DNA of 63,347 nt, the filler included, from Kipferlia bialata (taxonomy: Eukaryota): the NCBI GenBank assembly GCA_003568945.1. It is 6 parts of 6 records of this genome, joined end to end, with 100 filler letters (N's around TTAATTAATTAA, not from the genome) between each part and the next. Parts side by side here need not be neighbours in the genome. Positions count along the whole stretch, not along the records: positions 39,721 to 56,804 come from BDIP01000546.1; 5 more parts are not named here. One strand, 5' to 3'. Shown one piece after another: positions 9,939 to 53,711 of the stretch. Both the position numbers and the translations under genes were made by a program. Positions within the stretch are counted from its first letter, which is position 1. Each line of letters starts with the position of its first letter. The notes beneath the pieces were generated by a model. It had not been told where the DNA came from, searched no databases, and was given only the letters and a program-made list of their open reading frames with translations.

Positions 9939-9988
<50 letters not shown>

Positions 9989-10088: not shown

Positions 10089-10132
<44 letters not shown>

Positions 10133-10688
10133 ATATATACATACATACTCATATATGACCCCAGACCCAGCCTGAGGTTGAGTACATCCCCACACATAAC
10201 CTCTCTCTCTTTATACCTATATGTATGTCTCTTTCACACATATGCATGTGTATAACCCCAGACTCAGCCTGAGGTTGAGTACATCCCCACCCCCAAGCAG
10301 GCCCCAAGCCTATGGGACGCTGTCGCATCCATGGGTATGTATCTCTCTCTCTCTCTGTCTGTACTCTTCCCAAGTCCCCCTCCCCCCATCTCTGTTTCTC
10401 TCACATACTCACTTGCACAGTCTCTGCCTTTCTTCCTGTCAATATATATATGGGTAGATATTGTACCTGTGAACCACCCTCTCATACTAAGGATTCCCCT
10501 GACCCACAATGTAAGGGTACCTACTTCCTCTCTCTCTCTCTGTATATATATGTATACTCCTACTCGCCTTCTCTTACCCGGCGATGGTAGGGGACTCATC
10601 ATCCAACGGTTCCTACTCTCTCTCTCTCTCTCTCTCTATGTATACATATGTGTATATGTAGAAACCTGCTCTCTTTCTCAGACCAGCG

Positions 10689-19600: not shown

Positions 19601-19654
19601 GCAAGGCACAGGGGGGTACAGAGGAGTCTCAAGGCCCTTGCAACCAAGATGTGA
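10689..19654 (+). CDS. Large armadillo (ARM)-repeat protein, more than 35 exons, with a Pro/Glu-rich disordered insert (16986-17849)
   Basis: Repeated ~42-aa helical units such as LNSAGAYTIVRTIKNLIGDAEVVANGLAAIHQL, VQKGGAFSGLKACMEGHSKDPITLDIVLACIVNM, IDLGVVKQLMATLKDHPGSAVIVYRVFSALQNI. Stop TGA 19652-19654. Start codon uncertain. Confidence 0.8.
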
Positions 19655-30307: not shown

Positions 30308-33300
30308 TCACTTACTGGCCTCTGCGACCAGTGCAGCATACTGCAGAGTGTTGACTGTCTTCTGTAGATTAGACTGCATGTATATATATAAATTCTTATG
30401 GATATAGATATGTATATGCATACATTGACTGTGTTCTGTAGATCAGACAGTAGTATCTACGTATGCAAGTTTGTATCTATATACTTGTATTGACTGTGTT
30501 CTGTACCTGCAGGTGCTGGGCCGATGGGGATATGTTGGCAACCATGATGGTGCGGCTGTGCTCGGCCTGGGGTGTTAAAGAATATCAGGACACCAAATTC
30601 TGTGATTACATATCTCTCGTCCCATTGAATTGTGGGTTTCTATCTAACTATGTATATGATACCTGCAGGTGCTGTCTGAGTACCATCGTTAGTTTGCTGT
30701 TGCGGAAGGGTATGTGCTTTGCGCCGCTGCGGTTAGAGTGAGTAAGAGTGACATGGAAGAGATATATATACTGCTTTCATACTCTAATAATGTTTAGAAG
30801 CACTCAGAAGTAACACCTCATGTTCATGCCTGACACACTCCTTATGAGTGCTTACATTAACCCTTATCTACCAAATCTCATAATATATTTTGGGGCAAAA
30901 ATATATAGGTAGATTACCGCTCTATACCTGCTCATGCCCCTGACACACTCCTTGAGTGCCAGCAGTGTCTTGTTGATCTCCTGGCCCTCCCTCCTCTGCT
31001 TGGGACTGACCTAGACAGTAAGACATAGAAATACACTGCAAGCATATGAACTTCTATGATATGCACCTACTTCCAAGCGGTATCCCTGGACATATCCTGG
31101 GAATGGTGGTATATATACTATAGACATTGATATATATACATGTGTGTGTGGGTGTGTATATACAATGTACTTCATACCGGCTTCCAAGATGTGGCACCAT
31201 AGTCTGCCCCCTTATACAATAGACACAACACATGCAAATGTAGTCTATTGTATATACATATTGACACTGCCACTGCGTATTTTAATACTACATACCTGCT
31301 TACCACCTGTAGCACCGTACTCTGCCCCGTTATACTATACACACTACAGATGTGTATATAGTATACATGTATAAATATATATATTAGTCTGCATCAGACG
31401 TACATACCTGCTTCCCAGCTGTGGCCCCGTACTCTGCCCCAGCCAGGTCTACTAGCACTAGGGTACCACCTATGCAGCCACCGGAGGCACGGCACTCCTG
31501 GGGGTGGGAGAAGCATACCACTCGTATGCATTTACTATATGTGTATATCCAATATAGTCAGATATCCTGGGGTGGGAATAGTATTCATACAAATAGCGTG
31601 GACAGAGAGGGTGAATACCGTATATATACAGGATACGGCACTCCTGGGTGAGTACATCCCAAAAGTATGTCTGCAGGATACAGTATATGAACTGAGCACT
31701 AATAAGCAACACCAACCCTAGTCAGTGCCCTCTATCAATATATATCAATACAAAAATAGGAGAGCACTAGGACTTAATATATATGTATATATTGACATGA
31801 ATATGTATATGTAAAGATATATATACATGTATACCTTGGTGAGTGCCCCCTCCTGTGCCCTGAGGTCATCGAGTAGGCACTGCTCGTGGTCACGGGCCTC
31901 CTGGGGGTAAGGTGGAGGAAGGACTAGTCCCACAGGTAACTAGAGTAGTTTGTATAAGTATGCGTTACATTCTTGGATATCGAGACTCCTCCTCGGGCTT
32001 CTCAACAGGTAAGAGAACACTGAGTAGGTAATGACACTAGTATTCATATACATAACCCCCACCCTCAGCCTGTCCAGCCCGTCCCAGTCCACCCCGGACT
32101 CCTCTCTAGGCACAACCAGCAGCTGGGATAAGTCTCAGTATAAGCAGTAGATATACAATTGTCTATTGTAACAATAGATACTGAATCCTCCCTCGGCACT
32201 ACCAGCAGCTGTGATAAGTACCAAGAACAGAGTGTCAAAGCAGTTGGGATGAGCTATCAGTATCTGACCATTCTGAGTGGATTGCTGTCTCAGAGTGCCA
32301 AGTAGGTGAATAGATGACCTATGTCACCTCAGACATGTATCTGCAGTTCTCACTGATAGCTAGCCACACTCCATCTCTTCTCACCTTCCCGTGCTCATCC
32401 TTCTTGACAACCTATGTCGACTCCTACATGTAGCTGCACTAGAGGGTGCTAACCACTCCATCATTTCATATATCAGCTACATACCTTCCCGTGTTCATCC
32501 TTCTTGTACACCTTGGCCATCTCTATGCCGTTGCGGTCCTCGTACAACTTGCCTATAGGTGAGGACGGACACACACTATATTACTAGCACTCAATAGTTG
32601 TAATAAGCGAGTGATAATTAGTGACAATATATCTGCCCATACCTACTCTGGTGAGCTCCCCCTCCTGTCTAATGATGGCATCTCTGATGGATATGATGTC
32701 CCGGTTCACAATCTATGGGTCGGTATATGATTGAACCGAGTGTACATTGAGATGTTCACTGCTGACGTATTGATTTGACGTAGGACTATATACACAACAA
32801 GACGAAAGAAATACATGATAGCCACGTATACCTCGATGTAGAGCAGGGCGTGTGACCTGCTTGACTCGTCGTGTAGGGAGGAGGACCCGACCTGTCTGAC
32901 CTGCATGCCCTGGGAGACAATGGCATCCAGGCCTTGGATGAGGTATATACACTGACAGACTGAATGGTATATGTGTACTGTACTTGATAGTCTCAACTGG
33001 CACATACTCTCCTGCGTGTCTGTAACCAGTGTGTGTAGGGGATGCACAGTCGATAGACTACACATATATACTACATATACTACATGACATATAGAACATA
33101 TAGTCTCTACATCCACATACCCTCCTGTGTGTCTGTGTCTAATGCATGCAGGGGATGCACAGTCACAGCACCCCTCTCATCCTTGACAGTGCCAGCCCGG
33201 ATGTGAACCTGGGGGGTCAGAGAGTAGAGAGAGGGAGAAATAGAAACAGTAGTTGTATATCTACACACACCTTCCCGTCGCTGCCCTGTCTGACTGTGCA

Positions 33301-35074
33301 CTCTGCCCTGTGGTTCAACAGATCATAGACCTGGGGGTCAGAGGGAGATATACGTAGATATAGATTCAAATACATATATATGTAGAGAGAGAGGGGCACT
33401 CTGCCCTGTGGTTCAACAGGTCACAGACCTAGTGGGAGAGGGAGAAAGAGATACAGACAGAGCGAGACAGAAGCAGCCACGCAAAAGGCTAGCTTATCAG
33501 GGCGAACCAACGAAAGGCATATTTATCTATGAACTGAATAGACAGAGGCCCACTGATGATACCTCCGAAGAGAGACATATATGTATAGTAGTGAGTGAAT
33601 CCAATGATACCTTTCCGTTGTATATCTCGGCAAAACGGATCTGGAGCATAAGACCCGCATCCTGTGGTGAGTGCATGAATGAACGAATATATCGATATAT
33701 ATGTGTATACATGAAGTTGTGCCAGTGACAGTATGTATAGGAGTACCCTGAGGGTATCACCCAGATACTAGGCCTAGTATGCATCTACGAGTATCTCTGT
33801 GATATGTATTGAACACTGTATAATATTCTGAATACATCACCTTCTGCCTGATTGCATCACAAAGACAATATTTATATATAATGACATGTATTATATATCA
33901 CATGCATATACCACCTTCTGCCTGATCGCACAGAACCTATTGAATACACTCTATACAATATGCTACCTTAATACTATACAACATATCCTATATATGTTCT
34001 GCATATGCCTTACATACCTTCTGTCTGATTGCATCGCATAGTGCAGCTGCTGCCAGGGAGTAGAGACCGGCCTCACCCCTGTAGCCCATGATGGTGTGGG
34101 TCTTGCCAGCACCTGAATGTTAGGTCTTTAGCACATATCCCTGTATATATGGTTCATATACATCTCTTCTATATATGAATCTGAAACGGATGACTGATTT
34201 CACCGTTCTGGTGTGGGTCTTAACCTTAACAGCACCTGGAGGTGTGAGAGTATATATATGAATGTATTGTGTATGAATGCATACAGATTGCTAAGAGAGA
34301 GTGTATCAACATGCATAAGTATACTCCGTACTATACATAAGGATGGTGTGACATTGTTGTATATGACTGATACGGCGTGGGTCTTGCTTGTACATGAATC
34401 ATGTGGTCTTCTAGGCATACATATGTATATAGATGCAGGTATACTCAGCAAACATTGGAGGAACATATTAGAGAGAGAGCAAACACACACTTGTAAGACC
34501 TGCACAAGCAGGATATATATACGTATATATATATGTATGTATATGAGAGCATACATAGCATATATATATTCACTACCTGTGTGACCGTAGCAGAAGCAGC
34601 ATCCTGCCATGTATAATATACATGTGTATACATGTATATATATTCAATTGTGTATATGCACTACCTGTGTGCCCGTAGCAGAAGCAGCATGCGGTTGTGC
34701 CATTGTCCACTATACCCTGGACAAGGGGGGACACAGAGGCAGAGTAGACCTGGTGTCAGTGTATACATATATGTATATATGGTGTATATACTATATACTA
34801 TGCCCTGGACAAGGGGGGAGACAGAGGCATGGTATACCTAGTCTCAGTGTATATATATGTATATATGTAAATATGTGTGGGGTAAATACAAGGGGAGAGA
34901 CAGAGGCATCATAGACATGGTATAGGGAGACTATATTCATGTATGTTCAGAGAGAAAGGGGGGGGGGGGCAGGGGAGAGAGATACAGACGTACATCCTTG
35001 TTCATGGCTGTCTGTAGCATCACCCGTGTCATGCCCCTCATCCGCCATGTCTTGGGTCGGGTCCGGAGGGTGCC
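30308..35074 (-). CDS. Kinesin motor-domain protein (divergent family with a long insert), 5'-partial
   Basis: NKD|VYSASVSPLV, P-loop CFCYGHT|GAGKTHT, RFAEIYNGK|VYDLLN, switch I HDESSRSHALL, switch II LVLVDLAGAEYG, EINKTLLALKECV, HIPFRNSKLTMVLR, TIMVANISPS, TVNTLQYA. Stop at 30308-30310. Confidence 0.92.
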
Positions 35075-35373: not shown

Positions 35374-37127
35374 CTGATGGATGTAGGTAGCACTGCGCAC
35401 TGTGTGGCATAGCCTGGGACATGCCTCAGCTCAGGGGTCAGGGGGAGGAGACCACTCTCGTCAATGTACCTGAGGTGAGAGAGGATAATACGTAGAGAGA
35501 GAGGGAGAAAGAGGGAGGAGGTGGAACTGACCTCAGGGCCCTCTGGGGGTCCTCGGGGAGAGAGATCCTGGCCCTGCACAGAGAGAGCAGGGTGTGTGTG
35601 GACGAGACATCCTGAAGGATTAGAGAGAGAGAGAGAGATACCACATATGCTGATCGACAACAAGTCAAGGGCACATAATAACACACACACACGCATATTT
35701 ATATATATATCTATATATGAATATATATGTATACACACCTGCACTTGTGCGGAGGGGTCATTGAGCAGGGCCTCCACGTGGTTGACAGAGTCAGCGTCAG
35801 TGCCCTCGATACCTGGGTATAAATAGGAGACGCTCAAACGTCTAAACGTTCAGAGGACTATAGAGAGACTATAATCTTACCTGAGAGCAGGAGTGCGTTA
35901 CCGGCTGCCAGGGCCTTCTCGTACTCTCCCCCTGCGAGATAGAGGCCTAGACCCAGGGCAGGGCGGCCACCCTCAACGGCAGCAAGGCCTGGTGTAAGCT
36001 ACTATGCTCCATATATGTATATACTACACTGCTGAAGTACAATACAATATAGAATACGCACACATAAATATATAGGGGGAGAGAGAGATACCTGCAGTAC
36101 ACAGGGCAACACGCTCTTATATACATGGAGAGAGGGATACATAGTTGGACATACCTGCGGCACACAGGGCGGCATTGGCATGGGGTCCCAGCACACGCTT
36201 GACCTATAGATGAGGGGGTATCTAGTGTGGCTAGAGAGAGACAGAGAGAATAGAGAAATACCCTGACTATAATGCTATTTGCATATTTCTACTGGGGTCC
36301 ACTCTATACATGCATTCTACTGTATGCATACCTGGTCCACAGCAGAGTGTATGAATACATAATTGTAGTGTATATAATATATACGTATACATATTGATAC
36401 ACTGTCCATACCTGGTCCACGGCAGATGTGATGTCCCCTACCCTGAGGAGCACATCGGCAGTGACGGCGGCAGTCTGAGTGTCAGGGTCATCATGTATAT
36501 ATTAGTATATATATATATATGTATGTATATATATAGAGAGAGAAGAGTACACTCAGCAGCACATCGGCAGTGACAGCGGCAGTCTGGGTATGAGCATATA
36601 GTCAATTGAATACACAAAGATACATCATGTGTATCCAGATCTATATACATACTGCTAATAAGAGTACCTCGTTGGATGTCATGCCTGCACAGAGACCCAG
36701 GGAGGCAGGGCTCCAGCCACTGGCACCACAGCACCTGGGGTGTGAGGGAGACACAAGAGATGGTATAGAATATTGAGTAGTAGCATCCACACCTAGACAC
36801 GAGTGCCCTACACTAGGAGGGGCAGACCCACTACATATATATATATATATACACTATAAACACTATATAAGTACCTTGATACAAGGGCACCGTGGTTGAG
36901 CCTGCCATCCACCAGGAGGGGCAGACCAACTATATACTATACTTACTATTTATGTACTATATAATATATATAGTCTATACACACCTTGATACAAGGGCAC
37001 CGTGGTTGAGTCTGCCGTCCACCAGCAGTGGCAGCCCAACAGTGGGGGCAGCCCTACCAACCACAAGCTCAACAGCCACACGGAGGAGACCTAGAGGTAA
37101 GTAAGTACTATATATATATATATATAC

Positions 37128-37172
<45 letters not shown>

Positions 37173-38284
37173 TGCCTAGGGGGTGAGGGGGTGACTTTGT
37201 ACATATATACACATATACTATACATATACAGGATGGCCTGGGTGTATGTACAACATGTATGTAGGACGGAGTGTGCAATGTCTCTATGTGCACTACAATC
37301 AGGGTGTCATCAATCCACAAGTCCCTACCTGCAGCACGCAGGGCAATACAGTATGTAATATATATATACATATACATTCAATACATAAGTCCCCACCTGC
37401 AGCACGCAGGGCAGCAGCAACGGCAGCGGCCTCGAACAGAAGGCCTGGTGGTGAGGAGAAGAGTGGATTGGTATATTGTATACAAGAGCACATACATCAG
37501 CACTGTATGTTGTTTATACCTGGAGCCTCTAATGCTGCCACTGCCCTCTCTGGCTGTGCTGTCACTATCAGACACAGGGACCACAGGAGACGGGCACTCC
37601 TGGGGGTAAGATATCCAAACACACATGTATATATATATATATAGATACACTCACTTGGTGTCTGCTGCGTTGAAGTGTGCCAGACCAAAGGAGTCCAGGT
37701 GGGTCTGGAGGTCGGACAGAGAGGTGCCACCTGCGGCACCAGCCTCACGAAGGTCTATGGTGAGGGGGAGAATGAGTGCACACAAACACACACACACACA
37801 CACACACACGTACACATATAACTCTCTCTATATATATCTATATATATCTATACTAATACACATCAGTACCTGTGAGCATGGCGAGGTTAGTCCACAGGAA
37901 GTCGTGGAGGGAGGGGCACACGCTGGGGATGTGGAGTCCTGGGGTAAGGGGGGAAGAGATAAGGAGAGAGAGAGAGAGAGAGAGAGAGTACTTCAGTACC
38001 TGGGTCTGCTCCGCATATGACGTTGTACAGTGACACCATGTAGGGGTCCCTGGGTGCATCAGTGATGCCGACATTGAGGGAGTACTCCTCGGTCAGCCTC
38101 TCCCTGGCACCTGGGGGTGAGTACAAGTATATATACATTCTTTGTGTGTAATCGAAAATATATAGAGAGAGAGAGAGAGTGAGAGAGAGAGAGACTCGTA
38201 CTTGATGTGAGCTGGCAGGGGTGTGCTGCATACTGCATAGAGAGAGAGAGAAAATGTATATATACATACATACATCCATACATC

Positions 38285-38315
<31 letters not shown>

Positions 38316-38776
38316 CTCACTTGATGTGAGCTGGCAAGGGTGTGCCGCATACTGCAGGGCAGCTGTGACAAAGGCATCGGACAGGAGGTACTGCCTGCGC
38401 TGCACAGCGGCGGCAAACTCCTGGTGGTGAATATATATATATACAAATATACATGAGAGGGGGGGGCTCTAAACACATTTATGCTACTTGGTACCTGGTA
38501 GGCACCTGCCCTCAGCAGCAGGTAGAGCACAGGCCAGAGGGGCACATTGCTCTCAAGGACATCGCTGGGGGTGAGGAAGGGTGGGGGGAGAGGGGGAGAG
38601 AGAGAGACAGAAACAGGGAACACTCTACATGTCTACCATTCTCAAAATACGCTATATGTACACCTGTACTGCTCTTGGTATCCCCCCACATCTCTCTCTC
38701 TATATATATATATACATCTATACCTGTACTGCTCTGGGTATCCCCCCACATCTTCCCTTGTCTGGTGCTGGAAGTA

Positions 38777-38818
<42 letters not shown>

Positions 38819-39560
38819 AATATGAACATACCTGTACTGCTCTGGGTATCCCCCTACATCAGCCCTTGTCTGGTGCTGGAAGTATCTCTCAATCTCACCC
38901 ACAAGGCCTAGGGTGAGAGGAGAGCCTCAAAGTGAAGGTATATCCAGAACTGGACAGGTATGAATCTATGTGTGTGTGTACCTGACCCAGCTCCCCCTGT
39001 CTGCACATTACGGAGTGTGGCTCTGACATGTGCTAGGAAGTGCCTCTCCAGGTATGTTCTGGCACTACAGAGGTAGGCAACCTGAATCTACGCGGTGAGG
39101 GGCATAGCGTACATAGATACACTGTCTATATACACAATATACTGACTGCATATACCTATTCATAGCAACCTGAATCTAGGCGGTTAGAGAGAGAAACACG
39201 GAGAGAGAGACATAATAATGAGGTATACACAACACACTACTGATACATACTTGCACTGTCCAGCCATACTGTATGTATATGAATGTATATCGATGCTTAC
39301 CTCTGGGCTAGGGGGCTCTTCTGACACAGCCCATCCGCTCTTCCAGCGTCCACCTCCCTCGCTGAAGGGTGAGAGGTAGATGGAAAGACTAGATCCAGCA
39401 TATACATAGACAGTACACATATAATTAATCTTACACTGTGTGTGACCTCCACCAGATTCATACAAATATAATAGTATACAGATATATACATGTATATATA
39501 TCTTACACTGTACCTGTGCATGACCTCCACCAGATCTAGTAGGTCCAGACATACACATAT
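35374..39560 (-). CDS. NUP93: Nucleoporin Nup93/Nic96 homolog, partial at both ends
   Basis: ARTYLERHF..ELGQ, PLWPVLYLLLRAG, DPYMVSLYNVICGAD, SVCPSLHDFLWTNL, SLSDLQTHLDSFGLAHFN, ALRYIDESGLLPL follow the order of conserved Nic96/Nup93 blocks. Confidence 0.8.
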
Positions 39561-39720: not shown

Positions 39721-39764
<44 letters not shown>

Positions 39765-39825
39765 CATATATATACTTACCCTCCACCAGCTCTGTGAGTG
39801 TGTATCCCATCACTGTGTCTGCATA

Positions 39826-39862
<37 letters not shown>

Positions 39863-39910
39863 CTTACCCTCTACTAGTTCTGTGAGTGTGTACCCCATCA
39901 CTGTGTCTGC

Positions 39911-39952
<42 letters not shown>

Positions 39953-39965
39953 CCATATACCCTAC

Positions 39966-41807
39966 CCTCTACTAGTTCTGTGAGCGTGTACCCCATGACT
40001 GTGTCTGCATATGCCTGGGCAGCAGTGCTGGCAAAGGAAGAGTCAGAGGCGGCCTAGGTGTAAGAGTGATGCAGTAACATATATACAAGTAGAAATAGGA
40101 AGGGACAGAGAGAGAGAGAGATTGGACATAAAGGAGGACTCAGAGGCAGCCTAGATTGAGTATATGTAAATACACTCTATATTCAAAATATGTAAACTGC
40201 ATACGCGCCACATACCTGTATTTGTATTTAGGATATTCATAAATACTCTATAATCGATCCATACATGTGCGCATGGCCATGCCACTACACATATACGAAT
40301 TTGATAGTCATATACATATACATGTATATAAATGCAATATCGATATATATATCGGTATATATATATAGAAGAATATAAACTCACCTGTGCACATGGGCAT
40401 GCCACGTACTCTGCCGAGTGATACTCACAAAAATGTTACTATATATATATATATATATATATATACTTATTAATACATATAAATATGCGTGTGTATAACA
40501 CATACATACCTGTGCACATGGACATGCCACGTGCCGAGTCATACCCATGTGTGCATATATATACATACATTTACTATACATACACAAGTATATGTGTGTA
40601 TAACACATAATCACCTGCGCACATGGGCATGCCACGTACTCTGCCGAGTGACAGTCAGAGTGCAGGGAGCACTGGATGTCCTGGGGTGAGACGTAGTATA
40701 CATAATACACAAAAGAGGTAGTCTAATAAATACTTAAATATGAACAGATACATATAGTGTATGTATTTATGTATTGTATACTGGTGACAGTCAGAGTGCA
40801 GGGAGCACTGGATGTCCTATGGTGAAAACACCATACAGACATATATATATATATATGTGTACATAGTATGTGTGTAGAATAGTATATATAATAGTATACA
40901 GGTGACAGGGTCAGAGTGCAGGGAGCACTGGATGTCCTAGGGTGTATGGAGTACTAAATACACANNNNNNNNNNNNNNNNNNNNNNNNNNNNNNNNNNNN
41001 NNNNNNNNNNNNNNNNNNNNNNNNNNNNNNNNNNNNNNNNNNNNNNNNNNNNNNNNNNNNNNNNNNNNNNNNNNNNNNNNNNNNNNNNNNNNNNNNNNNN
41101 NNNNNNNNNNNNNNNNNNNNNNNNNNNNNNNNNNNNNNNNNNNNNNNNNNNNNNNNNNNNNNNNNNNNNNNNNNNNNNNNNNNNNNNNNNNNNNNNNNNN
41201 NNNNNNNNNNNNNNNNNNNNNNNNNNNNNNNNNNNNNNNNNNNNNNNNNNNNNNNNNNNNNNNNNNNNNNNNNNNNNNNNNNNNNNNNNNNNNNNNNNNN
41301 NNNNNNNNNNNNNNNNNNNNNNNNNNNNNNNNNNNNNNNNNNNNNNNNNNNNNNNNNNNNNNNNNNNNNNNNNNNNNNNNNNNNNNNNNNNNNNNNNNNN
41401 NNNNNNNNNNNNNNNNNNNNNNNNNNNNNNNNNNNNNNNNNNNNNNNNNNNNNNNNNNNNNNNNNNNNNNNNNNNNNNNNNNNNNNNNNNNNNNNNNNNN
41501 NNNNNNNNNNNNNNNNNNNNNNNNNNNNNNNNNNNNNNNNNNNNNNNNNNNNNNNNNNNNNNNNNNNNNNNNNNNNNNNNNNNNNNNNNNNNNNNNNNNN
41601 NNNNNNNNNNNNNNNNNNNNNNNNNNNNNNNNNNNNNNNNNNNNNNATATATACATAGTACCTGCATGTACCCGACCCCATCCTCTAGGTATGCACTGAC
41701 TGTATATAGACACATACACACATATACATATAGTAATATGTATATATATATTTACATATAGGCATGTACCTGCATGTACCCGACCCCATCCTCTAGGTAT
41801 GCACTGA

Positions 41808-41846
<39 letters not shown>

Positions 41847-44800
41847 GAAATACATATATGCATCTTCCAATATACACCTGCATGTACCCGACCCCATCCT
41901 CTAAGTATGCACTGACTATATACAAAAACAGATGTATATGTATATATATTCCATACTATATATATATATATATAGGTATACCACAGGATATACCTGCATG
42001 AACCCGACCCCATCCTCTAGGTATGCACTGACTGCCTTGAAGAAGGGGGTGCACTGGTCAGTCAGCCTGGGGTTGGAATACATGAGTATAGTGGGAGAAA
42101 GCGTATACTGACGCTACAATTCATACTATATAGAAAAAACATTAACATGCGTATGACTATTTGCATAATGTGACGTTAAATAGGGGTGTAATGGTCAGTA
42201 AGCTTGAGGTTAGTAATTTATGTATCATTGTATTGCTTATATGGATATATGTATCTCTATATCGTGTCATCAGAAATAGAGAATTTACATGTCAGACAAG
42301 TCGTCTTCCAATAGTGTGTCATGTAGTATAATACTAGTATATATGTATACCTCTCTCTATCATCATCACTCCTCACTTGCACCGTGACTGTGTCTGACTC
42401 CTGCCACAGATACTGCTCTCCATAGGGGTCACAGGCTAAGGTGAGTGTGCATTATACACACGTACATCTAGATATAGGGAGAGAGAGAAAGATGTACATG
42501 TGTGTAGATAATATATAGGATAGAGAGAAAGAGATCCCGACCAGACCATTCCCACCAAACATACACATAACAGAATGAATGTAAAAGCATACATGTGTAT
42601 ACATGTATTTGAATATATGAATACATGCGTATCCCCATACGTTTACCTGTATTTGAATATATGGATATATACATGTGCCCAGTTGAGCAGAACATGCCGA
42701 CTACACATGGTCACGTATATACAAATACACACACTACCACTATACACACACATATATACTTTTCTATATGCATGTGCCCACCTGATAAACATATATACAA
42801 ACACACACCCATATATATATACACATACATATATATATATCTATATATATCTATATGCATGTGCCCGCCTGATATATACACACACACATATATATATCTA
42901 ATACCGTTCACCATAATATGGAGAATGGAGAGAGAGAGAGAGAGATCCCCACCTGAGCAGAACATGCCGACCACATACTCGTACACGGCATCATAGCAGG
43001 AGACGGCCTGATGATTAGATATGTGTATATCTATATAGACTCAGGTGAATATATATCTAGTAATTGTCACCATCATAGCAGGAGACGGCCTGGGGGTAAG
43101 TAAGCAGGTATGAATAGTAACCAGTACATTCAATAGATACAATGAATGGGTGAGTATATATATATATCATAGCAGGAGACGGCCTGATGATTTGATATCT
43201 ATATATATCTAGTTTATGGACTAAAATGAATGTGTTTCTCAATTGAGGACGATACTAAAACGGCCTGGGGAAAATGAAAAGAAGCAAACTACTTAACAAA
43301 TATACACATAATGTATACAGACATACACAAGTTATGCAAACACACACAAATAATTACATTAACAATATATGTGCCTAGCACTATAAGAATACTCTATACC
43401 GCATGAGCTGTGTATGTGACTCTGGGACGACTATTCATATGACATACTAAATATTCTGAATACAATGAAATATATAAATACAAACATCCTCATCCTATAC
43501 CTGGTACCCCATGAGCTGTGTGTGTGACTCCAGGACATATATACATTTCACATACTACATATCTGAACACAATATATACATAACATAAATATATATATAT
43601 ATATATATGTATATATCCTATACCTGGTACCCCATGAGCTGTGTGTGTGACTCCATCATAGTACATACAAATCCTTGTCATATGTATGCCAAACCTTAAA
43701 TCAATGATATAATCAATATATATTATACCCATAATTACTATGATGTGCCTGATATCCCATGAGCTGTGTGTGTGACTCTAGGACAGAGTTGAGGGCATTG
43801 GCAGGGGTGGTATAACTGTGGTCAGTATCATATTTGCATATATATATATATATTCATATATATAGTAGTACGAATACACTAATGAATACAGAGTTGAGGG
43901 CATTGGCTGGGGTGGTGTAGCTGTGGTCAATAATATACATGTATGTATTTACATATATAGTAGTACGAATACACTAATGAATACAGAGTTGAGGGCACTG
44001 GCTGGGGTGGTGTAACTGTATGTGAGTTAGGTGTGTGTATATATATATTAATGTATATAAATATATATATATATATATATGCACACATAGTACATACATG
44101 TATATTTAGTGTTGAGGGCATTGGCAGGGGTGGTATAACTGTGGTTAGCACATACCATATGACTAACAAGTCCTAAATGACTTACCACTATATAAGTAAG
44201 TGATCATATACGTACTCGTCTGAACCCACTCTATATATGGAGACATCCACAGTGTGATACACTATATACTATATACATATGCATTTATACAGTATCATTG
44301 TAATCGGTATATATATATATATATATGTATCATTCTGTACGTACTCGTCTGTACCCACTATATACTACATACACATTCATATTCACAGTTACACTACCAT
44401 TGCTATGGATATATATCAATATGTACGTACTCGTCCGTGCCCACTCTGTATATGGAGTCACTGCGCTGGGATATGTACGACGGGGCCTGGATGTGAGAGA
44501 TACTCTTTCGGTCCCACATACATAGAGTTATGGGAGAATTCCCTGGTAGTGTACCCATGCCTACTTGCCTGCATCAATGCTATCTCCTGTTGCATGCCCA
44601 GCAGCATGGAGGGGATATATATATATATACAGAGAGAGAGAGTGTGTGTACTACATACATATACTATATACATATGTATATATATATATCAATACATACC
44701 TGCATGAGTGATATCTCCTGTTGCATATCCAGTAGCATGGAGGGGAGATAGGTGGACAGCATGGACTGTGGGTCAGGTATATCTATTACAGACACCACTG

Positions 44801-45969
44801 TGTATATAGTCTACATAATACAATATATGTATATATGAGTGTGCAAGGCATGGAGGGGAGATGGGTGGACAGCATGGACTGGGGGTAAGAGATAGAGTAT
44901 ACATAGATAAAGAGAGAGAGAGAATGAGTATACAATCAATATTCAAGAAATATATATACAGGAGACAAATCGGAGTTGCTAGGATACACTTATGGATATA
45001 CCTCATAGAGTGTGCTGGAGCAGCAGGATACGTCGTTGTCATACATGGGACACACTGGGATGAGGATAAGTACATATCCAGAGAGGAGGGAGAGAGAGAG
45101 GGAGAGAGAGAGAGAGTTGTCACACATCGGACACATTGGGGTGAATATATATAGGAAGGAACAAATCCAGAGAGATGAAGGGAGAGAAAGACAGACTTCT
45201 CACATATACATATCTATACCTGTTGACTGTGTTGGCTGTGTGAGTGCCACTGGGTACATGCCATATATATATATGTATATATATATATGTACACATACTA
45301 TATATATATACCATATATATATATACCTGTTGACTGTGTCTGCTGTGTGAGTGCCACTGGGTACATGCCATATATGATATAAGTACATAAGTATATACAC
45401 ATACTATATATATACACCATATATACCATATATCTATACCTGTTGACTGTGTCTGCTGTGTGAGTGCCACAGGGTACATGCCAGACACGGAGTGGCAGGT
45501 GGGGGAGAGCTAGGGTGAGATACATTGTATGCACATGTAGTATATAGATGAGTACGAGTGTATTACTATCTATTACTCTGGTAATTTGCATGCCAGACAC
45601 GGAGTAGCAGGTGGAGGACAACTGAGGTGAGAGAGGATATATATATGACAGAGAGAGTTCTATATGGTACATATGTGGTGTGATTGTTAATTGCATAGGA
45701 TATATATGAGAGACACGGAGTGGCAGGTGGGGGACAACTGGCATAAGAGAGAGAGTCAGTGGTTTGCAGGAAAGGGGGGGGGGGGGGGGGGGAAGGGGGA
45801 GAGGGGGGGAGAGAGGAGGGGGGGGGGGGGGGGGGGGGGGGGACTATACAGTAACACACTATACACATCCTATACATCCGCAATGCAAACCAGAGCCAAA
45901 AGGGAGGATAATGAATATCCTGTAATAGAGGCATACCTTGTCCGTCAATAGGTCAGGGGGGCTGGACAT
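39966..45969 (-). CDS. Cys-rich protein, possibly folate-receptor/NPC1-N-like, 3'-partial; tiny exons embedded in echo arrays
   Basis: MSSPPDLLTDK|LSPTCHSVSGMYPVAL..|VCPMYDNDVSCCSS..|..AVSCYDAVYEYVVGMFCS|..DQCTPFFKAV..|DIQCSLHSDCHSAEYVACPCAQ|..AYADTVMGYTLTELVE. The CP..SCC and C....FCS spacing is reminiscent only; family call is weak. Confidence 0.55.
40965..41646. other. Scaffold gap (N run) inside an echo-rich intron
   Basis: About 680 N with no linker motif. Confidence 0.95.
41660..42033. repeat. Four-copy ~40-nt direct repeat with dissimilar TA-rich spacers (exon 3'-end echo array)
   Basis: ACCTGCATGWACCCGACCCCATCCTCTARGTATGCACTGA at 41660, 41768, 41876 and 41992. The last copy is the real exon end. 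Confidence 0.92.
43398..44150. repeat. Double echo array: four copies of each half of one exon
   Basis: CATGAGCTGTGTRTGTGACTC at ~43402, 43510, 43633, 43758 and GTTGAGGGCAYTGGCWGGGGTGGT at ~43788, 43892, 43988, 44111. Confidence 0.9.
45218..45742. repeat. Echo arrays on both sides of exon 45440-45510
   Basis: ACCTGTTGACTGTGT..GTGAGTGCCAC.GGGTACATGCCA at 45218, 45325, 45438; AGACACGGAGTRGCAGGTGG at ~45483, 45595, 45711. Confidence 0.9.
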
Positions 45970-46319
45970 TGTAACAGACAGTGATTCACTGTCAGTGAAT
46001 AGAGTGGAGAGAACCAACTTAGTTATTGATCAAACTTAGACCTGAAGGTCAATCAAACTTGTGTCTTTGCTAATTCATAACTCATACTTCTATACACGCT
46101 TCCTAACTCATATCTCGTCGCTGCCTTTAACCGAGGTCAACACATGGCCAGGTAAGTGAGTTGTACGGATACGTGGGGATGTATATTGTATCGCTATCTG
46201 TGTATGTAGAAATTGTCTCACTCTGTTGTGATGGATGTCTATTGGTCTATATAGCTATGTCGTGGAACTTGTGATAGGTGGTTGTGAGACGGGGTACTTG
46301 TGACATCGCAAGTTGACCC

Positions 46320-47316
46320 CTACTCCTCCCTGGGACATAGATCCTCGAATACATCTCCATCAGACTGGATGGTGATGATGTCGGGACCACCTAGTGTCAG
46401 TAACACGACATACACAGTACTGACTTCGGCAGAGTAACACAGCATAGAATTTCTGTGTTTCTACCACTATCCTACAGAAGGCCTAGCTCTCCTCGCTACT
46501 ATATTCCTGACAGTGACAGTGTTTTACTGTACAAAGTATGAACTGCAGACACCAACCTGCAATGAATGCCGCTCTCAGTGTTGCCACGACAGCTGCGTCG
46601 TAGGGTTCACGGCTGGTCTTGCAGAAGTAGAAGAGACCCCTGACGTGAGTAATACTCATCGCGTTTGAAGTGTTCACACCATTATACGCGGTGCTAAGTG
46701 AATGTGTTTGCGAAAGGTATCATCTCTTGGAGAAGTAGGAGAGTCTTCTGTGGTATTATCTGCCAATTTCTGTATCTCAATGGAGTCCATATATACCCAC
46801 ACTATTCTTCCCAAGAACTTCTTCGATGTCCACACCACTCACTTGTCTGGGCACAGTGGGTTGAACCTTAGCGATGTGAGGGAACTGTCCTGTGTCAGAT
46901 GGACATTCACACACCTACGCAGAGAGAGAGAGAGAGAGATTGAGCTGCCAGGTTAGCTTGTTCTACAGTTCCTTGTCAGGCGCACATCGCGACAGTCCCC
47001 ATCGGTAGTGACCTATAGTTTGGCTCAAACCCACCTGAATCTGAGGCCGCTCAGGGTCCCTGGTGAGGCAGAATGGCTCTCCTGTCTCATTGGACAGACA
47101 GATGTGGTCGGCAGATACAGTGTGCTCAAAAGCGGTAGGATCACGTGCAATGACCTCCTCTACTGCCTTCACTGTTAGAACACTACATTGACCAATACCA
47201 GATACATAGTATACCATATAGTAATGTATATACTATACTATGTATACCTTTACAACACTCTCCCACTGCTCGGGAGTGAGGGGACCCTTGCGGTACCAGT
47301 AGTGTGTGTAGCCCAT
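46320..47316 (-). CDS. Small uncharacterised 'MGYTHYW...FCKT.R.PYD...SDGD' family protein, 5 exons
   Basis: MGYTHYWYRKGPLTPEQWESVVK|..GEPFCLTRD..|..|GLFYFCKTSREPYDAAVVATLRAAFIA|GGPDIITIQSDGDVFEDLCPREE*. Confidence 0.8.
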
Positions 47317-47849
47317 ATCCTGCTGTGTATGTGAGAGGGAGAGCGACGCCATCAGTAGAAGGTATCACCATTTGAGTTTACTGTAGAGTGCTCAGTGAAG
47401 GCATTAGACTCTGGGGACGACTAATCGTGGCAAGGCGATCTGTTGGCATCTAGTTTACTCCCCTAGACTGAGGACTGTATAGACTATACAGGCTGTATAG
47501 TCTATTAGGTTAGACTCAGTTTATGGTTCCCTTCGTTTGGTTCAACATGACTCAAGGGGTGACAGAGGTACAGGACATACGTTGTGCGCTGACAATGCAA
47601 CGAATACATCAACAATTCTCGTTAAACAATACCACATTAGACACGTATCAAGTTGATAATCAACATACTAGGAGACGTAAGTCTCGGTACATGGACCAAG
47701 ATACACAATATTGGTGTCTACGCAAAGACATTGAAATATAGAATTATTGTCTTTCTATATCTATTCAATATCTACATTATTGAGAGCATATACATACACC
47801 ATGACCACCAGATGGACACAAAGTCCTAGCTCTACTATATGCCTTCGTG

Positions 47850-50739
47850 TTACTGTGGGAGTGTTAAGTTGATGTCAGATGGAGTCTCCTCGAGGAAAGA
47901 GATTGGCACCTTGGCCCCCTCTACCACACACTGTGACAGCATGCAGCACTGACACACCTTGGGGGTCTGACTCCTCAGCTTGACAGCGTTGTAGCACGTG
48001 TGGTGGACCTGCAGTTAGAATGAGTTATTGTCTTCCTATCATGTATAGGAGGTGTTATTACTGTATATGCATAATACTACCTGCTTAGCGTGGTGGATAC
48101 AGGAGACATATACATATAGATGTATATGTAAACATGTCGAGAGAGAGAGTTACTGTGCATGCATAGATGTATATATACTATATACAGTATATAGTACCTG
48201 CTTAGCGTGGTGGATGCAGGAGCATGACCCCCTGGCTGCTGCACTCTCTCCCTCTCCGACCCTCTCAGTACAGAGGAGGCATGCAGATCTGTCTAGCCTA
48301 CCAGCTGTGATCTTGAGACTGACATAGTCACACATCCCACACTCCTGAGGGTCGTAGCGTCTGTATATGTCGACAGGGGCCGAGAGAGGGGGGACCTTGA
48401 CTGCGGAGGGTGGGTATCTTCCACCACCCTTGATGCCTGGGGTGAGAGAGGGAGAGGGGGAGGGGGAGGGGGAACAGGTAGAATACCTGTTGGTGGAATA
48501 CTATATGAGGTGAAACACCAGTAGAGTCAAATATGGAGTACACACCTGTGAAGCTGAGTGTGCAACCGATGAACCCCAGGGTAGTGGCCTCCACCCACTC
48601 ATTACACACAGGACACTTGACCTATGGTAAGAGAGGAGTTAGGACAGATGATGATGGATTGATGAACGTATATATGTACTCAGGGCACTTCACCTGGGGC
48701 GGTGGAGTTTGTTGCAATACAACCGATATATAAATGAACGAGTAATCGCGCGATAAGGCAAGTATATATATATATATACTCGGGGTACTTGACCTGGGGT
48801 GAGGAAGAGTGTGCATGATGTAGAGTTCCTTACAAAACACAGTAATATATATTAGCAAGGGACTTATACTGGGGTGGGGAAGACGAATGTGTGTATCAAG
48901 TGTGTGTTGATTGTAAGGACGAGCAGTCGGGACAATAATCAACAGGAATGAGAGTGTGTTAGTGACCTCGCTGTAAGAATAGTTTCATACAGAGTTGTAT
49001 ACACATATATATATAGACCCATACCTTGTAGGAGTCCATCTGGAGATCAAATGTCCCCATCCAGCACTTGTGTATCACCATGTGTCCGCATGCCGCACAC
49101 TCCTTGTTGGTGCATACTCCCTCTAGGTTGAGACCATAGGTGGCACTCCGCCAGCTGGGGCACTTCCCAGACCTGGCGGGTGAGGTGTTTATATACACTA
49201 ACATATACCAGTATAAATACAATATAACAATAATATTGTGTATTAATATGATATGTACATATGACAGATACACTCATACCTGTCGAGGGGGATGTTGCCC
49301 AGACCCTCAGTCTCCTCCACGTCCACAAACCCAGCACGGCACCCACCGCCCCTGGGCTCTACCCAGAGACCCAGTGTGTCCCCAGCTGTGACGCCATAGG
49401 AAGCAAGGGTGCGGCTCTCGTCCTGCAGGGTAGGAATGCATATGTATTAGGCGGCTTTTAGGTCCGTATCAAACTTTGATTCAAAGATGTTGTACATTAT
49501 ACGAGTATAAAAGTATACGAGTATTCGTATTCCCCAATAGTATATACGTGCAGTATATACACAATATATATATACATCACAATATAGTATAATAATATAT
49601 GTGTGTGTATATGTGTGTATACATACCTGCCTTTGCCCATTAGGCAGGTCCCTCAATTGCTTGGCCTATATACATTAAAGTATATGTAAATAATGTATAT
49701 ATATGTATATATATATATGTATATGCCGGCATCTGACCTTTGGGCAAATCACCTATATAGTCATAATACTATATATGTATATGTGTATATACACCTGCAT
49801 CTGCCCCTTGGGTGCCCCATCTACGTAGTCCTCATAGTCAGCAAAGGGATCACACGTATCGCTGACATAGAGGGTGATGGAGCGGCGCCTGAGGGACTCC
49901 GATACCGCAACCTTATCCAACAGCTCAGCTACTGTGGTGTCAGGCTGGACAGAGACGGTCATGGAGGTGCCTCTCACCATGTGATACAGGCTGATCACGA
50001 TATCAGTGGGAGGGGCCAGTTTGACACCCCACACTGAGCCGAGGACAAGGTCTGCAGACAGCTGTCCGTAGTACTTCTCTCCGTCACAGTAGACAGCGAG
50101 GACACGCCTCCCAGCCTCTGCCTCGATGGCCTGAATGAGAGAGAGAGAGAGAGAGAGGAGAGAGACTGTATGTATATCTGATGGTATATATATATATATA
50201 TATTATATACTAATATATACGCCTGCCAGCCTCGGCCTCGATGGCCTGTGTGAGAGTGGAAGAAGTAGAGAAAAACGCACAAGAGGGTATGTATCATGTA
50301 CCACATATGCATATATGCAGAGTCTGCCAATAGCCTAGAGGCCCTCTAGGGCCTGATATGTGTGTGCTAAACATAAGAACGGGTGGGGGGGGGGGGGGGG
50401 GGGGAAAAAAAAATAAATTATAAAGAGACTCTGTCAGTGCTCCTTCCATCTAGTACGAAGCACAAATATGCTAGAGAATAGGATAAACCCTGCTCAGACA
50501 CAAGAATAAGCACAGACAGAGACTATAAGTAGCCAGAGAGAGAGAGAGAGATACATGCATACCTGCTCCTTCAGTTCCTTGAGTTTGTCTCTCTTAGGCG
50601 GTAGGGGATGCCGTTTGAGACTCATTCTCGCTTGGGCACCACTGATGTAAGAGGGGGGGGGGGGGCAAAGAGACAGAGAGATAGAGAGAGAGTGATACTA
50701 AGAAGGGTAGTCGTGTGCTCACCTTTCATGGCAACCCAT
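47850..50739 (-). CDS. Ubiquitin-like domain + Cys-rich 'WR..GLNLEG.C.N..C' domain + RINGv (C4HC3) protein
   Basis: MGCHES start; UBL (..TVSVQPDTTVAELLDKV..DESRTLASYGVTAGDTLGLWVEPRGG); PSWRSATYGLNLEGVCTNKECAAC..VKCPVC..GFIGC; CLLC-x15-CSC-x7-H-x2-C-x13-CQCC. Stop at 47850-47852. A probable 5'-UTR donor (AG|GTAAGT) lies at ~51060. Confidence 0.8.
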
Positions 50740-51599
50740 CCCTCTCTCTCTTTCCCCCTCTCTTCTGCTCTCACCAGTCAGCCCGTCCTGCCTCACCCGT
50801 ATCTGACTGACTCTACCTAGAGAGATAGATAAGGAGTTGAGGACCCAGTTGAAAATCAGAAACTCTGAACCCTTTTCTAGTCTGACCCTAGCAACTCAGT
50901 AATCAACACGTCTCATGCACGATATGGATAAGACCTGTGCAACATATGCAGCAGTGGGCAGAACTGGGGACGAATAATCCTTGAGACGGGGTCTCCAGGC
51001 CAACGCCGGTAGAACGACTTGGCAATGAGGCATACTCATAAAAGGGAAGTGGTACTTACCTTTTATAATAGTGGTGCTTCCCGGAAGTACCACTGTTTGT
51101 TACCTGATAGAGTCAAGACTCTTGACTCAATATCGTGAATCGTTGTAATATAGTAGATACGACTCGAGAGTATAGGACACCTGAATAGAGAACAGTATTC
51201 ATCATACGTAGTACGTATTGTACGTATTACGTACAATATGCACTTGTACAGATCTACAAGGCGGGAATCCCGCAGCGGTATTCATGTTGAATCATACAAT
51301 AGACGTATCATTGCCTGAAACATCGACGTGTTTCATTCTAAAGCAAGTGCCAAAAGCCTAATGGTGCGGTTGATTCGTGATCTTGTCATTCGAGAACCAC
51401 CATTCTATGGCTCAAGTAGACATGAATTAGTAATGGGGATCAAGGTTTGGGCCAAGACAGAAGACATGAAAATAGTCCATTTAACAGTCGTTCTAGCTGT
51501 AACGGGTATTCTTCTATTACGTTGCACCAGCCTATATCTAATACACATTGTATCATTGGTCATCAGTTGAGGACCTCTACACTCTCTCTCTCTCTCTCT

Positions 51600-53057
51600 C
51601 TACTGCGTAACCGCCTTGGCCTCCCTCCCTCTCCACCTTAGTGCCTCCTCTCTAGATAGGTACATGTCCCTCTCTCCCTTGCAGGCCTCTATCCAGTTAG
51701 CCTGACAGCCTCTGAGGGTCAATGGTGGTGTATTGGTACACAAGCAAACATGCATATATATGTGTATGAACACATCATACTAAGTTTCACTCCTATACAC
51801 TAAACCAAGTACATTGAACCCCCCCATACCTGTCAAATGGGTTGTCCGGCCCATGGGGTCCATTGAGATAGGTATACCTGGGGATGAGAGAGAATGATCC
51901 AATAAAATCAACTCTGTGTGAACATGAATGCATATATGTATCCACCCTTCACCCCCACCCCTACACCCCACCCTCAAACATACCTAAACCCATTGAGCGT
52001 CTCGTTGGTGGTTGTGTTGCTAGTCAGCTGTTTGGAGTGAAGACCCACTAAGCCAATAACGTTGATGAGCTGAGGATGAGAGAGAGAGAGAGAACAGGGA
52101 TAATTGGAAGTCAACCGTACAACTAAGCAGCTACTTCGATTCCTCCACACAATCCTCAATACGCACTACACTTGACAACATACCATACTGCTTCCTATCA
52201 GAGCCCCTATCATCCAGGGTGCCTTTACACAGAGTGTCAGGATCTGACGCAATACACTGTCCTAGTGGTAAGATGAAATATCAAAGTCTCTATCATTGAG
52301 TACACATACCTGACTACTTGCCCCCAGTCAATCCAGCACCAGATATATACAGATATATAGAGGCAGAGAATCAATAGTAACACTGTATACACAACATACC
52401 CCAGCCTTGGCCCCCAGTCCCTCTCTGTCCAGTACAAGTGAGTACACTATCAGGCCATCATAGACTATGAATAGTCCCATTGACAGCCATAACAGGACAT
52501 AGAAGGCAGCTAGGTTCCTCTTTCCAATGCAGTTGTTGAGCCAAAGGCAGTCTGAACGGTCAGGGAATAGGCCAAGAGAGAGAGTCACTACACATAACTA
52601 GTCCTATATAGAACAAAAATGGGTGTTCTACTATACAAATGTGAACGTACGGTGATCGAACCGAGAGACGCATCTGCCGCACTGCGAACAGTGTTTGGAC
52701 CTGAGGGGTCTGGGGGTGAGGGATGTAACACATTGGGATACAAATGGCTACCGTGTATACACACTCATATATGTAACATATCTACACTGTACCTAATCAT
52801 TAGGCATGTGGCGCAGTGTCTGGACGGGTGCTGCAGACTGTTAACGTCAACAGCAGGGGCCTCACCTCCACTGTTGCCTGGGGGTGAGGGTGGATACTTG
52901 TAAATACACATATACTGCTACTTGTATATACATATATACTACTGCTATATTATAGAGAGAGAGGGGGGGGAGAGAGTACCTAGATGGAGTCCCAGTGTGA
53001 CAGGCACAGGTACCACAGGGGGTAGGTCGAGACTGGGCTTGTCCGGCTGGGTCAGAC

Positions 53058-53088
<31 letters not shown>

Positions 53089-53679
53089 CATCCAAAGGTA
53101 GACACAGTTGTATCCAGGAGCACCCGTACCTGTATGAATCCAGGGTCACACTGTGATGTGAACACTACCAGACCCAGCTGTACTACAGACAATACAATCA
53201 GTACCCAGCACAAGGGTACCAGTGTGTGGTTGGGTATGTACAGCTGGACCAGGGTGGCTATACAGGCCAGAGGGTATATCAGGAACCCTAAGAGAGGCAG
53301 GTTGACGTATCTCTTGACTGCTATGGACAGCCTCTTCCTCACAGTGCTGTGGGACTTGATAAGGGTAGCTATACCCATGTTGACTGGGGGGTTAGGGACA
53401 TGCAAGGTTGAAGACAATATATATATATATATATATATAATACATATTGCAATCTATTGCAGTGCTACAAAGTGAGGGTGTCTATGCCCATGTTGACTGG
53501 GGGGTTAGGCAAATTATATATACATACATTGTATATTAAAAATGAAATAGTACAGAGTAATAGTAGGGTGGCTAGGTCCATGTTGACTGGGGGGTATCTG
53601 CACCATACCCTCAGCCCTGTCTCCAGTGAAACAATATACAATTAGATATGTATATGGAATACTAATATAATATACATAC

Positions 53680-53711
<32 letters not shown>

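What the first reader, a model, noticed from the sequence alone, without database searches (positions are those of the whole stretch)
39775..40012. Echo copies diverge almost only at synonymous sites (6 of 6 changes here)
Seen on the minus strand. Exon tail: tat gca gac aca gtC atg ggG tac acG ctc aca gaA ctA gtA gag g|gt. Distal echo: tat gca gac aca gtG atg ggA tac acA ctc aca gaG ctG gtG gag g|gt. Both encode YADTVMGYTLTELVE, and the middle copy is intermediate (2 silent changes). A dead intronic copy should pick up mostly amino-acid-changing differences. Inference: either echoes are translated (alternative part-exons; each begins right after a (GA)n AG), or they cycle into the coding position by unequal crossover/gene conversion, or they derive from diverged alleles.
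Basis: partly seen in the sequence, partly recalled or inferred. Interest (0 to 1): 0.85.

Follow-up and report, generated by a model that had tools for sequence, protein, structure and literature searches.

The report
Introns keep fossil exon-end alleles
In the protist Kipferlia, introns hold partial copies of neighbouring exon ends that lack the signals to be spliced in, yet differ from the working exon mostly at silent letters, likely because they were copied from other, strongly diverged working versions of the gene, which would make them a fossil record of past genetic exchange.

Summary
Observation confirmed. A Kipferlia bialata exon tail and two intronic copies all read YADTVMGYTLTELVE, with 2 and 6 silent differences. 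All three occur as separate DNA contigs at the depth of their unique neighbours, so they are not merged haplotypes. The pattern holds across the window: 85 junction-anchored copies at 52 of 178 exons, dN/dS 0.21 (bootstrap 0.16-0.28) without this pair. A dead copy should give about 0.5, not 1.

The copies do not look translated. Their (GA)n AG scores below all 177 real acceptors, the one spliced contig seen uses only the exon, 15 of 85 copies are broken, and tail copies with no usable acceptor still show 72 silent to 29 replacement changes. Simulated cycling or conversion within one lineage gave 0.47-0.64; copying from other alleles gave 0.14-0.26. The copied splice sites have also changed the way working sites do.

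Best reading (0.6): the copies are scars of repair or recombination between diverged alleles or lineages. No second strain was found, so the donor alleles are inferred. The scan earlier noted similar copies in a sea urchin, with no silent-site bias mentioned.

The parts
39966..40053 (-). Working exon 11 of KIPB_003015 (AASDSSFASTAAQAYADTVMGYTLTELVE G); its last 46 nt (40011-39966) are copy A1
   Evidence: a spliced contig of run X2 covers it with 0 other letters
39868..39913 (-). Tail copy A2 in the intron: 2 silent differences from A1, followed by GTAAGT, preceded by (TA)n(GA)n, no branch motif
   Evidence: own DNA contig at depth 306
39780..39825 (-). Tail copy A3: 6 silent differences from A1, followed by GTAAGT, preceded by (TA)n(GA)n
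   Evidence: own DNA contig at depth 325
40130..40154 (-). Head copy of the same exon in the upstream intron (AG + 21 nt; 2 silent and 1 replacement change)
40054..40614 (-). 561-nt GT-AG intron, skipped by the X2 contig; holds two tail copies of exon 10 and the head copy of exon 11
40615..40680 (-). Working exon 10 (DIQCSLHSDCHSAEYVACPCAQ), with head copies at 40825 and 40944 and tail copies at 40532 and 40427
39966..45969 (-). Gene KIPB_003015 (partial, 237 aa, 11 exons, 29 copies of exon ends in its introns). No Pfam match; NPC1 N-terminal domain is a weak lead only (Atlas score 0.75)
30308..35074 (-). Kinesin-motor gene, 12 anchored copies, 28 silent : 16 replacement
51603..56587 (-). Ankyrin-DHHC gene, 12 anchored copies, 21 silent : 5 replacement

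Best explanation
The copies are real, junction-spanning partial duplications lying in introns, likely unexpressed, whose sequence likely came from other working alleles or sister lineages of the same gene rather than from today's exon. Shown: each copy is an exon head with its acceptor upstream of the exon, or an exon tail with its donor downstream (85 of 85 anchored copies); copies differ from the exon about five times more at silent than at replacement sites; their splice sites differ at degenerate positions but keep the consensus. Inferred mechanism: a break near a (TA)n run is repaired by homologous recombination on a diverged homologue. The homologue's exon end and intron start are copied in; the strand cannot re-anneal cleanly in the fast-changing intron and rejoins at microsatellite; the old exon end is pushed into the intron. 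Only events that leave one whole exon survive, hence head-upstream and tail-downstream. The copy starts out different at sites where working alleles differ (silent head start about 0.14-0.2) and then decays neutrally (dN about 0.045, lost GT/AG, stops, indels). Later copy-to-copy duplications and exchanges also occur. This would need past contact between diverged alleles: sex, parasex or hybridisation.
For: Pooled exon-versus-copy dN/dS is 0.21 without A2/A3 (83 copies, 129 silent: 77 replacement, P 8e-10 against 0.5; family bootstrap 0.16-0.28). It holds leaving out any one gene (0.16-0.20) and reverses in the wrong frames (2.15, 1.88). It survives conditioning on base and 3-mer context (88 of 146 silent against about 59 expected, first copy set). 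Copy-versus-copy is 0.31 (P 1e-5 against 1). Where the exon equals the farthest copy and nearer copies differ, 12 changes are silent and 6 replacement. 6 of 20 two-letter codon changes are Leu-to-Leu. A frame-independent line: 89 of 204 donor and 80 of 272 acceptor positions differ, and the copy's bases score like draws from working sites (-0.10 and 0.06, expected -0.04 and 0.01), not like neutral mutation (-0.53, -0.62). A dead-copy model has AIC 494 against 447. In simulation allele templates give 0.14-0.26 and every single-lineage setting 0.47-0.64. All 47 copy-bearing introns contain (TA)3+, against 46 of 121 others. Metamonads lack NHEJ proteins and fornicates have Dmc1 paralogues instead of Rad51A (PMC8516963, passages).
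Against: No donor allele was seen: only one version of the exon-11 head lies in the DNA run, P0001 has no relative or cluster mate, and a degenerate pattern found nothing in metagenome contigs. The model needs silent diversity of about 0.15-0.2, which is high. Silent differences are evenly spread (dispersion 0.73). That rejects a simple non-recombining coalescent (0 of 400 runs) and fits a fixed divergence; strong recombination within 30 bp could also give it, but I did not simulate that. The intron flank is more diverged (44% mismatch at donor +3..+6) than the allele simulation gave (0.21); conversion-only runs gave 0.35-0.44. 'Head start' and 'constant ratio' models tie. Broken copies alone are not significantly below 0.5 (23:21, P 0.06). 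Exon models other than KIPB_003015 are my own curation. The donor-site test can be inflated by (TA)n resembling the consensus.
Confidence: 0.6

Rival explanations
1. The copies are, or until recently were, used in cis as alternative part-exons at low level or in another life stage, so purifying selection acts on them directly.
For: dN/dS 0.2 and conserved splice consensus are what selection on used sequence gives. GT is kept in 43 of 51 and AG in 31 of 34 copies. Replacement changes are slightly conservative (BLOSUM, P 0.04). A2 and A3 are in frame.
Against: The A2/A3 acceptor scores -9.7, below all 177 real ones, and lacks the branch motif found at 168 of 178 exons. Only 10 copies could swap for their exon, and 40 tail copies with no usable acceptor still give 72:29. 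Only 1 of 85 has an in-register internal donor/acceptor pair. 15 of 85 are broken. One unbroken 1166-nt X2 contig uses the exon with 0 differences and no X2 contig carries copy letters; contigs drop rare variants, so this is not proof of absence.
Confidence: 0.13
2. One hybridisation or allopolyploidy between two lineages about 20% apart at silent sites, followed by loss of one set; the copies are scars of exchange between the two sets in a single episode. This is a special case of the best explanation.
For: Even spread of both silent and replacement differences (dispersion 0.73 and 1.01) fits fixed D = 0.2, t = 0.05.
Against: Families show three or more distinct haplotypes: A2 would need three switches in 30 bp to be a two-parent mosaic, and three-state codons occur. 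Copy-copy silent divergence (0.18) is as large as exon-copy. Ten identical copies exceed the 1-9 of that model. No second version of the exon-11 head in the DNA run.
Confidence: 0.14
3. Dead self-copies that cycle into the coding position by unequal sister exchange or conversion within one lineage, or dead copies next to an exon that mutates faster.
For: Copy-to-copy duplication and hybrids are visible (43932 and 44019 share a downstream flank but not the acceptor side). Exon-limited conversion reproduces the high flank divergence.
Against: Six such settings pooled to 0.47-0.64 (single runs ranged 0.05-1.82, so only the pooled value counts). Dead copies under my detection filter stay above 0.40 in 97.5% of runs. 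A faster exon would need about 4 times the intron rate, yet intron flanks diverge most.
Confidence: 0.09
4. Assembly artefact: haplotypes of a mixed or heterozygous culture stitched in tandem at microsatellites.
For: Short-read assembly; the contig ends in the same (TA)n(GA)n; no listed piece spans A1-A2-A3, so their adjacency rests on the original assembly.
Against: In run X1 the three copies are separate contigs at depth 337, 306 and 325, like unique neighbours (314-381). A2 and A3 are preceded by (GA)n, not by an exon head. The bin depth of 921.1 is exactly these three records. Copies carry stops and frameshifts.
Confidence: 0.04

Closest known systems
Human F7 IVS7 37-bp minisatellite spanning the exon 7 / intron 7 border (PMC1557585, abstract read)
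   Same: A repeat unit straddles the exon-intron border; downstream pseudo-donors stay silent and the most upstream donor is used.
   Different: F7 pseudo-sites are identical in sequence and lie in one gene. Here 52 of 178 exons are affected, both ends are copied, units are separated by microsatellite, and they diverge with a silent-site bias.
Intron gain by tandem genomic duplication / internal gene duplication (PMC4974935 and others, search listing only)
   Same: Short intragenic tandem duplications that reshape introns.
   Different: No new intron is made: existing introns grow (median 284 against 97 nt), and only 1 of 85 copies has an in-register internal donor/acceptor pair.
Heterogeneous gene duplications that join two alleles on one chromosome (PMC6121789, abstract read)
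   Same: The duplicate is inferred to start out different because it comes from another allele.
   Different: Those are whole, working, selected gene copies. These are 15-65 nt dead fragments, many per gene, with no sign of benefit.
Tandemly duplicated mutually exclusive exons (recalled)
   Same: Neighbouring copies with low dN/dS.
   Different: Copies are partial (median 41% of the exon), have only one splice site, and are absent from the spliced contig.
Pseudogene versus working parent, expected dN/dS near 0.5 (recalled; reproduced by simulation)
   Same: A dead copy beside a constrained original.
   Different: The observed 0.21 lies well below it.

Membership tests
Alternative / mutually exclusive duplicated exons | Usable splice sites at both ends | tested here: not met
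   A2/A3 acceptor -9.7, below all 177 real acceptors; 10 of 83 other copies could swap
Alternative / mutually exclusive duplicated exons | Whole exon duplicated | tested here: not met
   median 29 nt, 41% of the exon; 85 of 85 anchored copies are head-upstream or tail-downstream
Alternative / mutually exclusive duplicated exons | Found in spliced transcripts | tested here: inconclusive
   the one spliced X2 contig uses A1 only; contigs drop rare forms and raw reads were not available
Alternative / mutually exclusive duplicated exons | dN/dS well below neutral | tested here: met
   0.21
Junction-spanning tandem repeats (F7 IVS7 type) | Unit spans an exon-intron border and carries pseudo splice sites | tested here: met
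   GT 43 and GC 3 of 51; AG 31 of 34
Junction-spanning tandem repeats (F7 IVS7 type) | The first donor is the one used | tested here: met
   X2 record 9 leaves the window at the end of A1 (39965) and runs on for 382 letters; one junction only
Junction-spanning tandem repeats (F7 IVS7 type) | Regular, near-identical minisatellite units | tested here: not met
   1-3 copies, uneven spacing, flanks 44% mismatched
Intron gain by tandem duplication | Duplicated AG|GT used as new donor and acceptor | tested here: not met
   1 of 85 passes
Heterogeneous (two-allele) duplication | The two copies match two alleles of a population | not testable with these tools
   no second strain found; indirect support only
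Heterogeneous (two-allele) duplication | Both copies work | tested here: not met
Haplotype-merge assembly artefact | Copies at fractional depth | tested here: not met
   337, 306, 325 against 314-381

The most novel reading that the evidence does not exclude
K. bialata introns are a genome-wide archive of extinct alleles. Recombinational repair between strongly diverged homologues, in a cell without NHEJ, leaves the displaced exon end in the intron thousands of times. One genome would then give the species' past silent diversity (about 0.15-0.2) and direct evidence of genetic exchange in a group where sex has not been observed.
Probability: 0.45. Interest if true: 0.8.

Novelty: new variant of a known kind. 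Interest (0 to 1): 0.63.

Why it matters
Unexpressed intron sequence is not expected to carry a coding signature stronger than about 0.5. Here it does, at nearly a third of the exons examined and in every gene with enough copies to count. If the copies are captured alleles, a single short-read genome becomes a population sample, and sex or parasex in a free-living fornicate becomes testable; PMC8516963 states that neither has been directly observed in Metamonada. It also offers a route of intron growth tied to the loss of NHEJ. It is a warning for gene prediction and for reading low dN/dS as proof of translation: my own gene finder called many of the copies as exons.

Tried and rejected
No whole genome is held, so all counts are for this window only.

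Reads were laid only on 39775-40964, and only as contigs. RNA use of the other copies is untested, and molecule-level phasing of A1-A2-A3 is open. No listed holder is on record as RNA; X2 is a guess, supported by its skipping a GT-AG intron. X1 may be the source of the assembly and is not independent of it.

No relative of P0001, no Pfam family, Atlas lead only; no structure was predicted because it does not bear on the question. A degenerate pattern in metagenome contigs gave 0 matches. Rfam and ARAGORN found nothing in the window.

Mutation context as the cause was rejected. GC-to-AT direction of silent versus replacement changes was not significant (P 0.30). Silent and replacement divergence per copy correlate weakly (rho 0.19, P 0.09). 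Polarity within arrays is mixed and cannot order births.

Three of 88 hits not anchored at a junction were dropped; about 3 false hits were expected from the control (41 in 873 kb). A first copy set (75) lost long copies to a complexity filter and was replaced; both give about 0.2. Genes at about 19.7-23.3, 46.3-47.3 and 62.6-63.3 kb were not curated. A search for a paper on the 0.5 expectation found none, so it rests on my simulations and recall. Supplements of papers were not read.

Full report
Setting. The window is six contigs joined by N-TTAATTAATTAA-N linkers. The finding lies at the end of the 17,084-nt contig 39721-56804, on the minus strand. A search with a 40-codon window reference from exon 9 returned one protein, KIPB_003015 of Kipferlia bialata, on a contig of 17,084 nt. 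My 11-exon model translates to it exactly. It has no Pfam match and only a weak Atlas lead to the NPC1 N-terminal domain (0.75). The genome paper reports 124,912 introns and a short-read assembly; its main text has no occurrence of 'duplicat', 'heteroz', 'ploid' or 'alternative' (PMC5874029, passages and methods section).

Observation. The exon tail (40011) and two intronic copies (39913, 39825) all read YADTVMGYTLTELVE and end G|GT, with 2 and 6 silent differences from the exon. Against a constrained exon, a dead copy collects silent changes on both lineages and replacement changes on one, so about 0.5 is expected (0.47; 0.51-0.52 with my detection filter, lower 2.5% limit 0.40). Six of six has P 0.0056 under that null.

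Are the copies real? On 39775-40964 run X1 has three contigs over the tail with 0, 2 and 6 other letters at depth 337, 306 and 325; listed unique neighbours are at 314-381 (one record at 704). The bin depth of 921.1 equals these three records exactly (my arithmetic), so no fourth copy was laid. Only one record covers the exon head. The tool warns that contig depth is not a copy number, 72 pieces were not shown, and no piece spans the array. Still, fractional haplotypes are not what is seen.

Are they translated? Run X2 has one 1166-nt contig that joins exon 10 to exon 11 across the 561-nt GT-AG intron with no difference from the exon and carries the exon-9 letters upstream. The only other X2 record laid is an unrelated 37-nt match. 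No X2 record has copy letters; rare forms could have been dropped. The (GA)n AG before A2 and A3 scores -9.7, below all 177 real acceptors, and lacks the branch motif present at 168 of 178 exons.

Is the bias general? I curated 178 exons in 10 gene models; single exons of the kinesin, ankyrin and DHHC genes match Pfam in the chosen frame, mostly below the curated cut-off. Aligning each exon to its flanking introns gave 88 hits in 66 kb, against 41 in 873 kb of control. 85 are anchored at a junction, at 52 exons; three were dropped. All 85 are a head upstream or a tail downstream; median 29 nt, 41% of the exon. Without A2/A3: 129 silent and 77 replacement differences, pS 0.217, pN 0.046, dN/dS 0.21, family bootstrap 0.16-0.28, P 8e-10 against 0.5; by codon position 36, 33, 137. 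A simpler count gives 0.19; wrong frames give 2.15 and 1.88; leaving out any gene gives 0.16-0.20; single-copy families give 0.16. Base and 3-mer context do not explain it. The long ARM-repeat gene has one anchored copy in 42 exons and the kinase gene none in 30. All 47 copy-bearing introns contain (TA)3+, against 46 of 121 others (31 of 51 in the copy-rich genes), and they are longer.

The copies decay and cannot mostly be exons. Fifteen of 85 have lost GT/AG (3 of these now read GC), gained a stop or carry a frameshift; these give 23:21 (0.30, P 0.06). Ten could in principle swap for their exon (16:11), while 40 tail copies with no usable acceptor give 72:29. One of 85 has an in-register internal donor/acceptor pair.

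What made them silent-biased? With dS 0.26 and dN 0.047, a copy has been non-coding for at most about a third of the time since it parted from today's exon (inference: dN divided by dS/2). Copy-versus-copy is also biased (0.31, P 1e-5 against 1). Changes private to the exon are 13 silent: 2 replacement; to nearer copies where exon and farthest copy agree, 12: 6; to the farthest copy, 15: 17. Six of 20 two-letter codon changes are Leu-to-Leu. Independently of frame, the copied splice sites differ from the exon's at 89 of 204 donor and 80 of 272 acceptor positions, and the new bases score like working sites, not like neutral mutation; 27 of 34 head copies keep a branch motif, against 161 of 945 other intronic AGs. 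In forward simulation, unequal sister exchange (three rates), conversion (two rates) and both together pooled to 0.47-0.64, while templates from other alleles gave 0.14 and allelic replacement of the exon 0.26 (ten runs each, single runs noisy). So the copies spent most of their separate history as working exon ends, most simply in other alleles or lineages.

Mechanism (inferred). Metamonads lack NHEJ proteins and fornicates have lost Rad51A and carry two Dmc1 paralogues (PMC8516963, passages); that Dmc1 tolerates mismatches is recalled, not checked. A break near (TA)n, repaired on a diverged homologue whose exon still pairs but whose intron does not, would install the homologue's exon end and intron start and push the old end into the intron. 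Selection keeps only products with one whole exon. Templated insertions and tandem duplications are known outcomes of error-prone break repair (PMC7407515, passages).

What does not fit. No donor allele was seen. The needed silent diversity, 0.14-0.2, is high, though protists have the largest effective sizes in one survey (PMC12895298, passages). Silent differences are evenly spread (0.73), which rejects a non-recombining coalescent and fits a fixed divergence; free recombination among sites would also give it but was not simulated. Intron flanks are more diverged than the allele runs predict, and some junctions may lie close to the splice site. Head-start and constant-ratio models tie.

Novelty. 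Junction-spanning repeats (F7 IVS7, PMC1557585, abstract), internal duplications (listing) and two-allele duplications (PMC6121789, abstract) are known, and this scan noted copies of exon ends in a sea-urchin gene (e1-7787398). In ten searches no listed title or abstract start described this pattern in Kipferlia or a silent-site bias in dead intronic copies; the library lacks most subscription papers and I read no supplements. Verdict: a real, general and surprising pattern; a new variant of a known kind; mechanism likely but not shown. Interest 0.63.

Noticed in passing
window 43749 (minus): The annotated protein implies a GC donor at the end of exon 6 of KIPB_003015, while its two nearer tail copies (43653, 43537) carry GT donors. 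On both sides of this exon the farthest copy matches the exon where the two nearer copies share silent changes.
   Followed up: partly
window 41662-41917 (minus): All three tail copies of exon 9 read Tyr (TAC) where the exon and the X2 contig read Phe (TTC): a conservative change private to the working exon.
   Followed up: partly
window 29388-29422 and 29492-29526 (plus): A 35-nt tail copy identical to its exon but with a different donor flank (GTAAAT against GTTCGG); likewise the head copy at 43092 has an identical exon part behind a different, strong acceptor.
   Followed up: partly
window 1-19650: The kinase gene and the long ARM-repeat gene have short, (TA)n-poor introns and almost no copies, so copy density differs strongly between genes or regions.
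   Followed up: partly
window 9989, 27201, 39621, 56805, 62053: Contig linkers of 44 N + TTAATTAATTAA + 44 N; contigs end in poly-C/G or (GA)n runs. A 682-N gap at 40965-41646 sits between copy arrays.
   Followed up: yes
window 45286-45425, 56354-56496, 57831-57960, 61006-61124, 29451-29600: Intron-only local duplications also occur, so duplication is not confined to exon ends.
   Followed up: no
window 47910-50130 (minus): Gene with a weak ubiquitin-like match and Cys-rich motifs; a stretch at 49665-49627 may be an old, diverged tail copy or a small exon.
   Followed up: no
window 35374-39361 (minus): An 18-exon helical-looking protein directly upstream of the kinesin exons, with no Pfam hit on five exons; whether it is one gene with the kinesin is unresolved.
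   Followed up: partly
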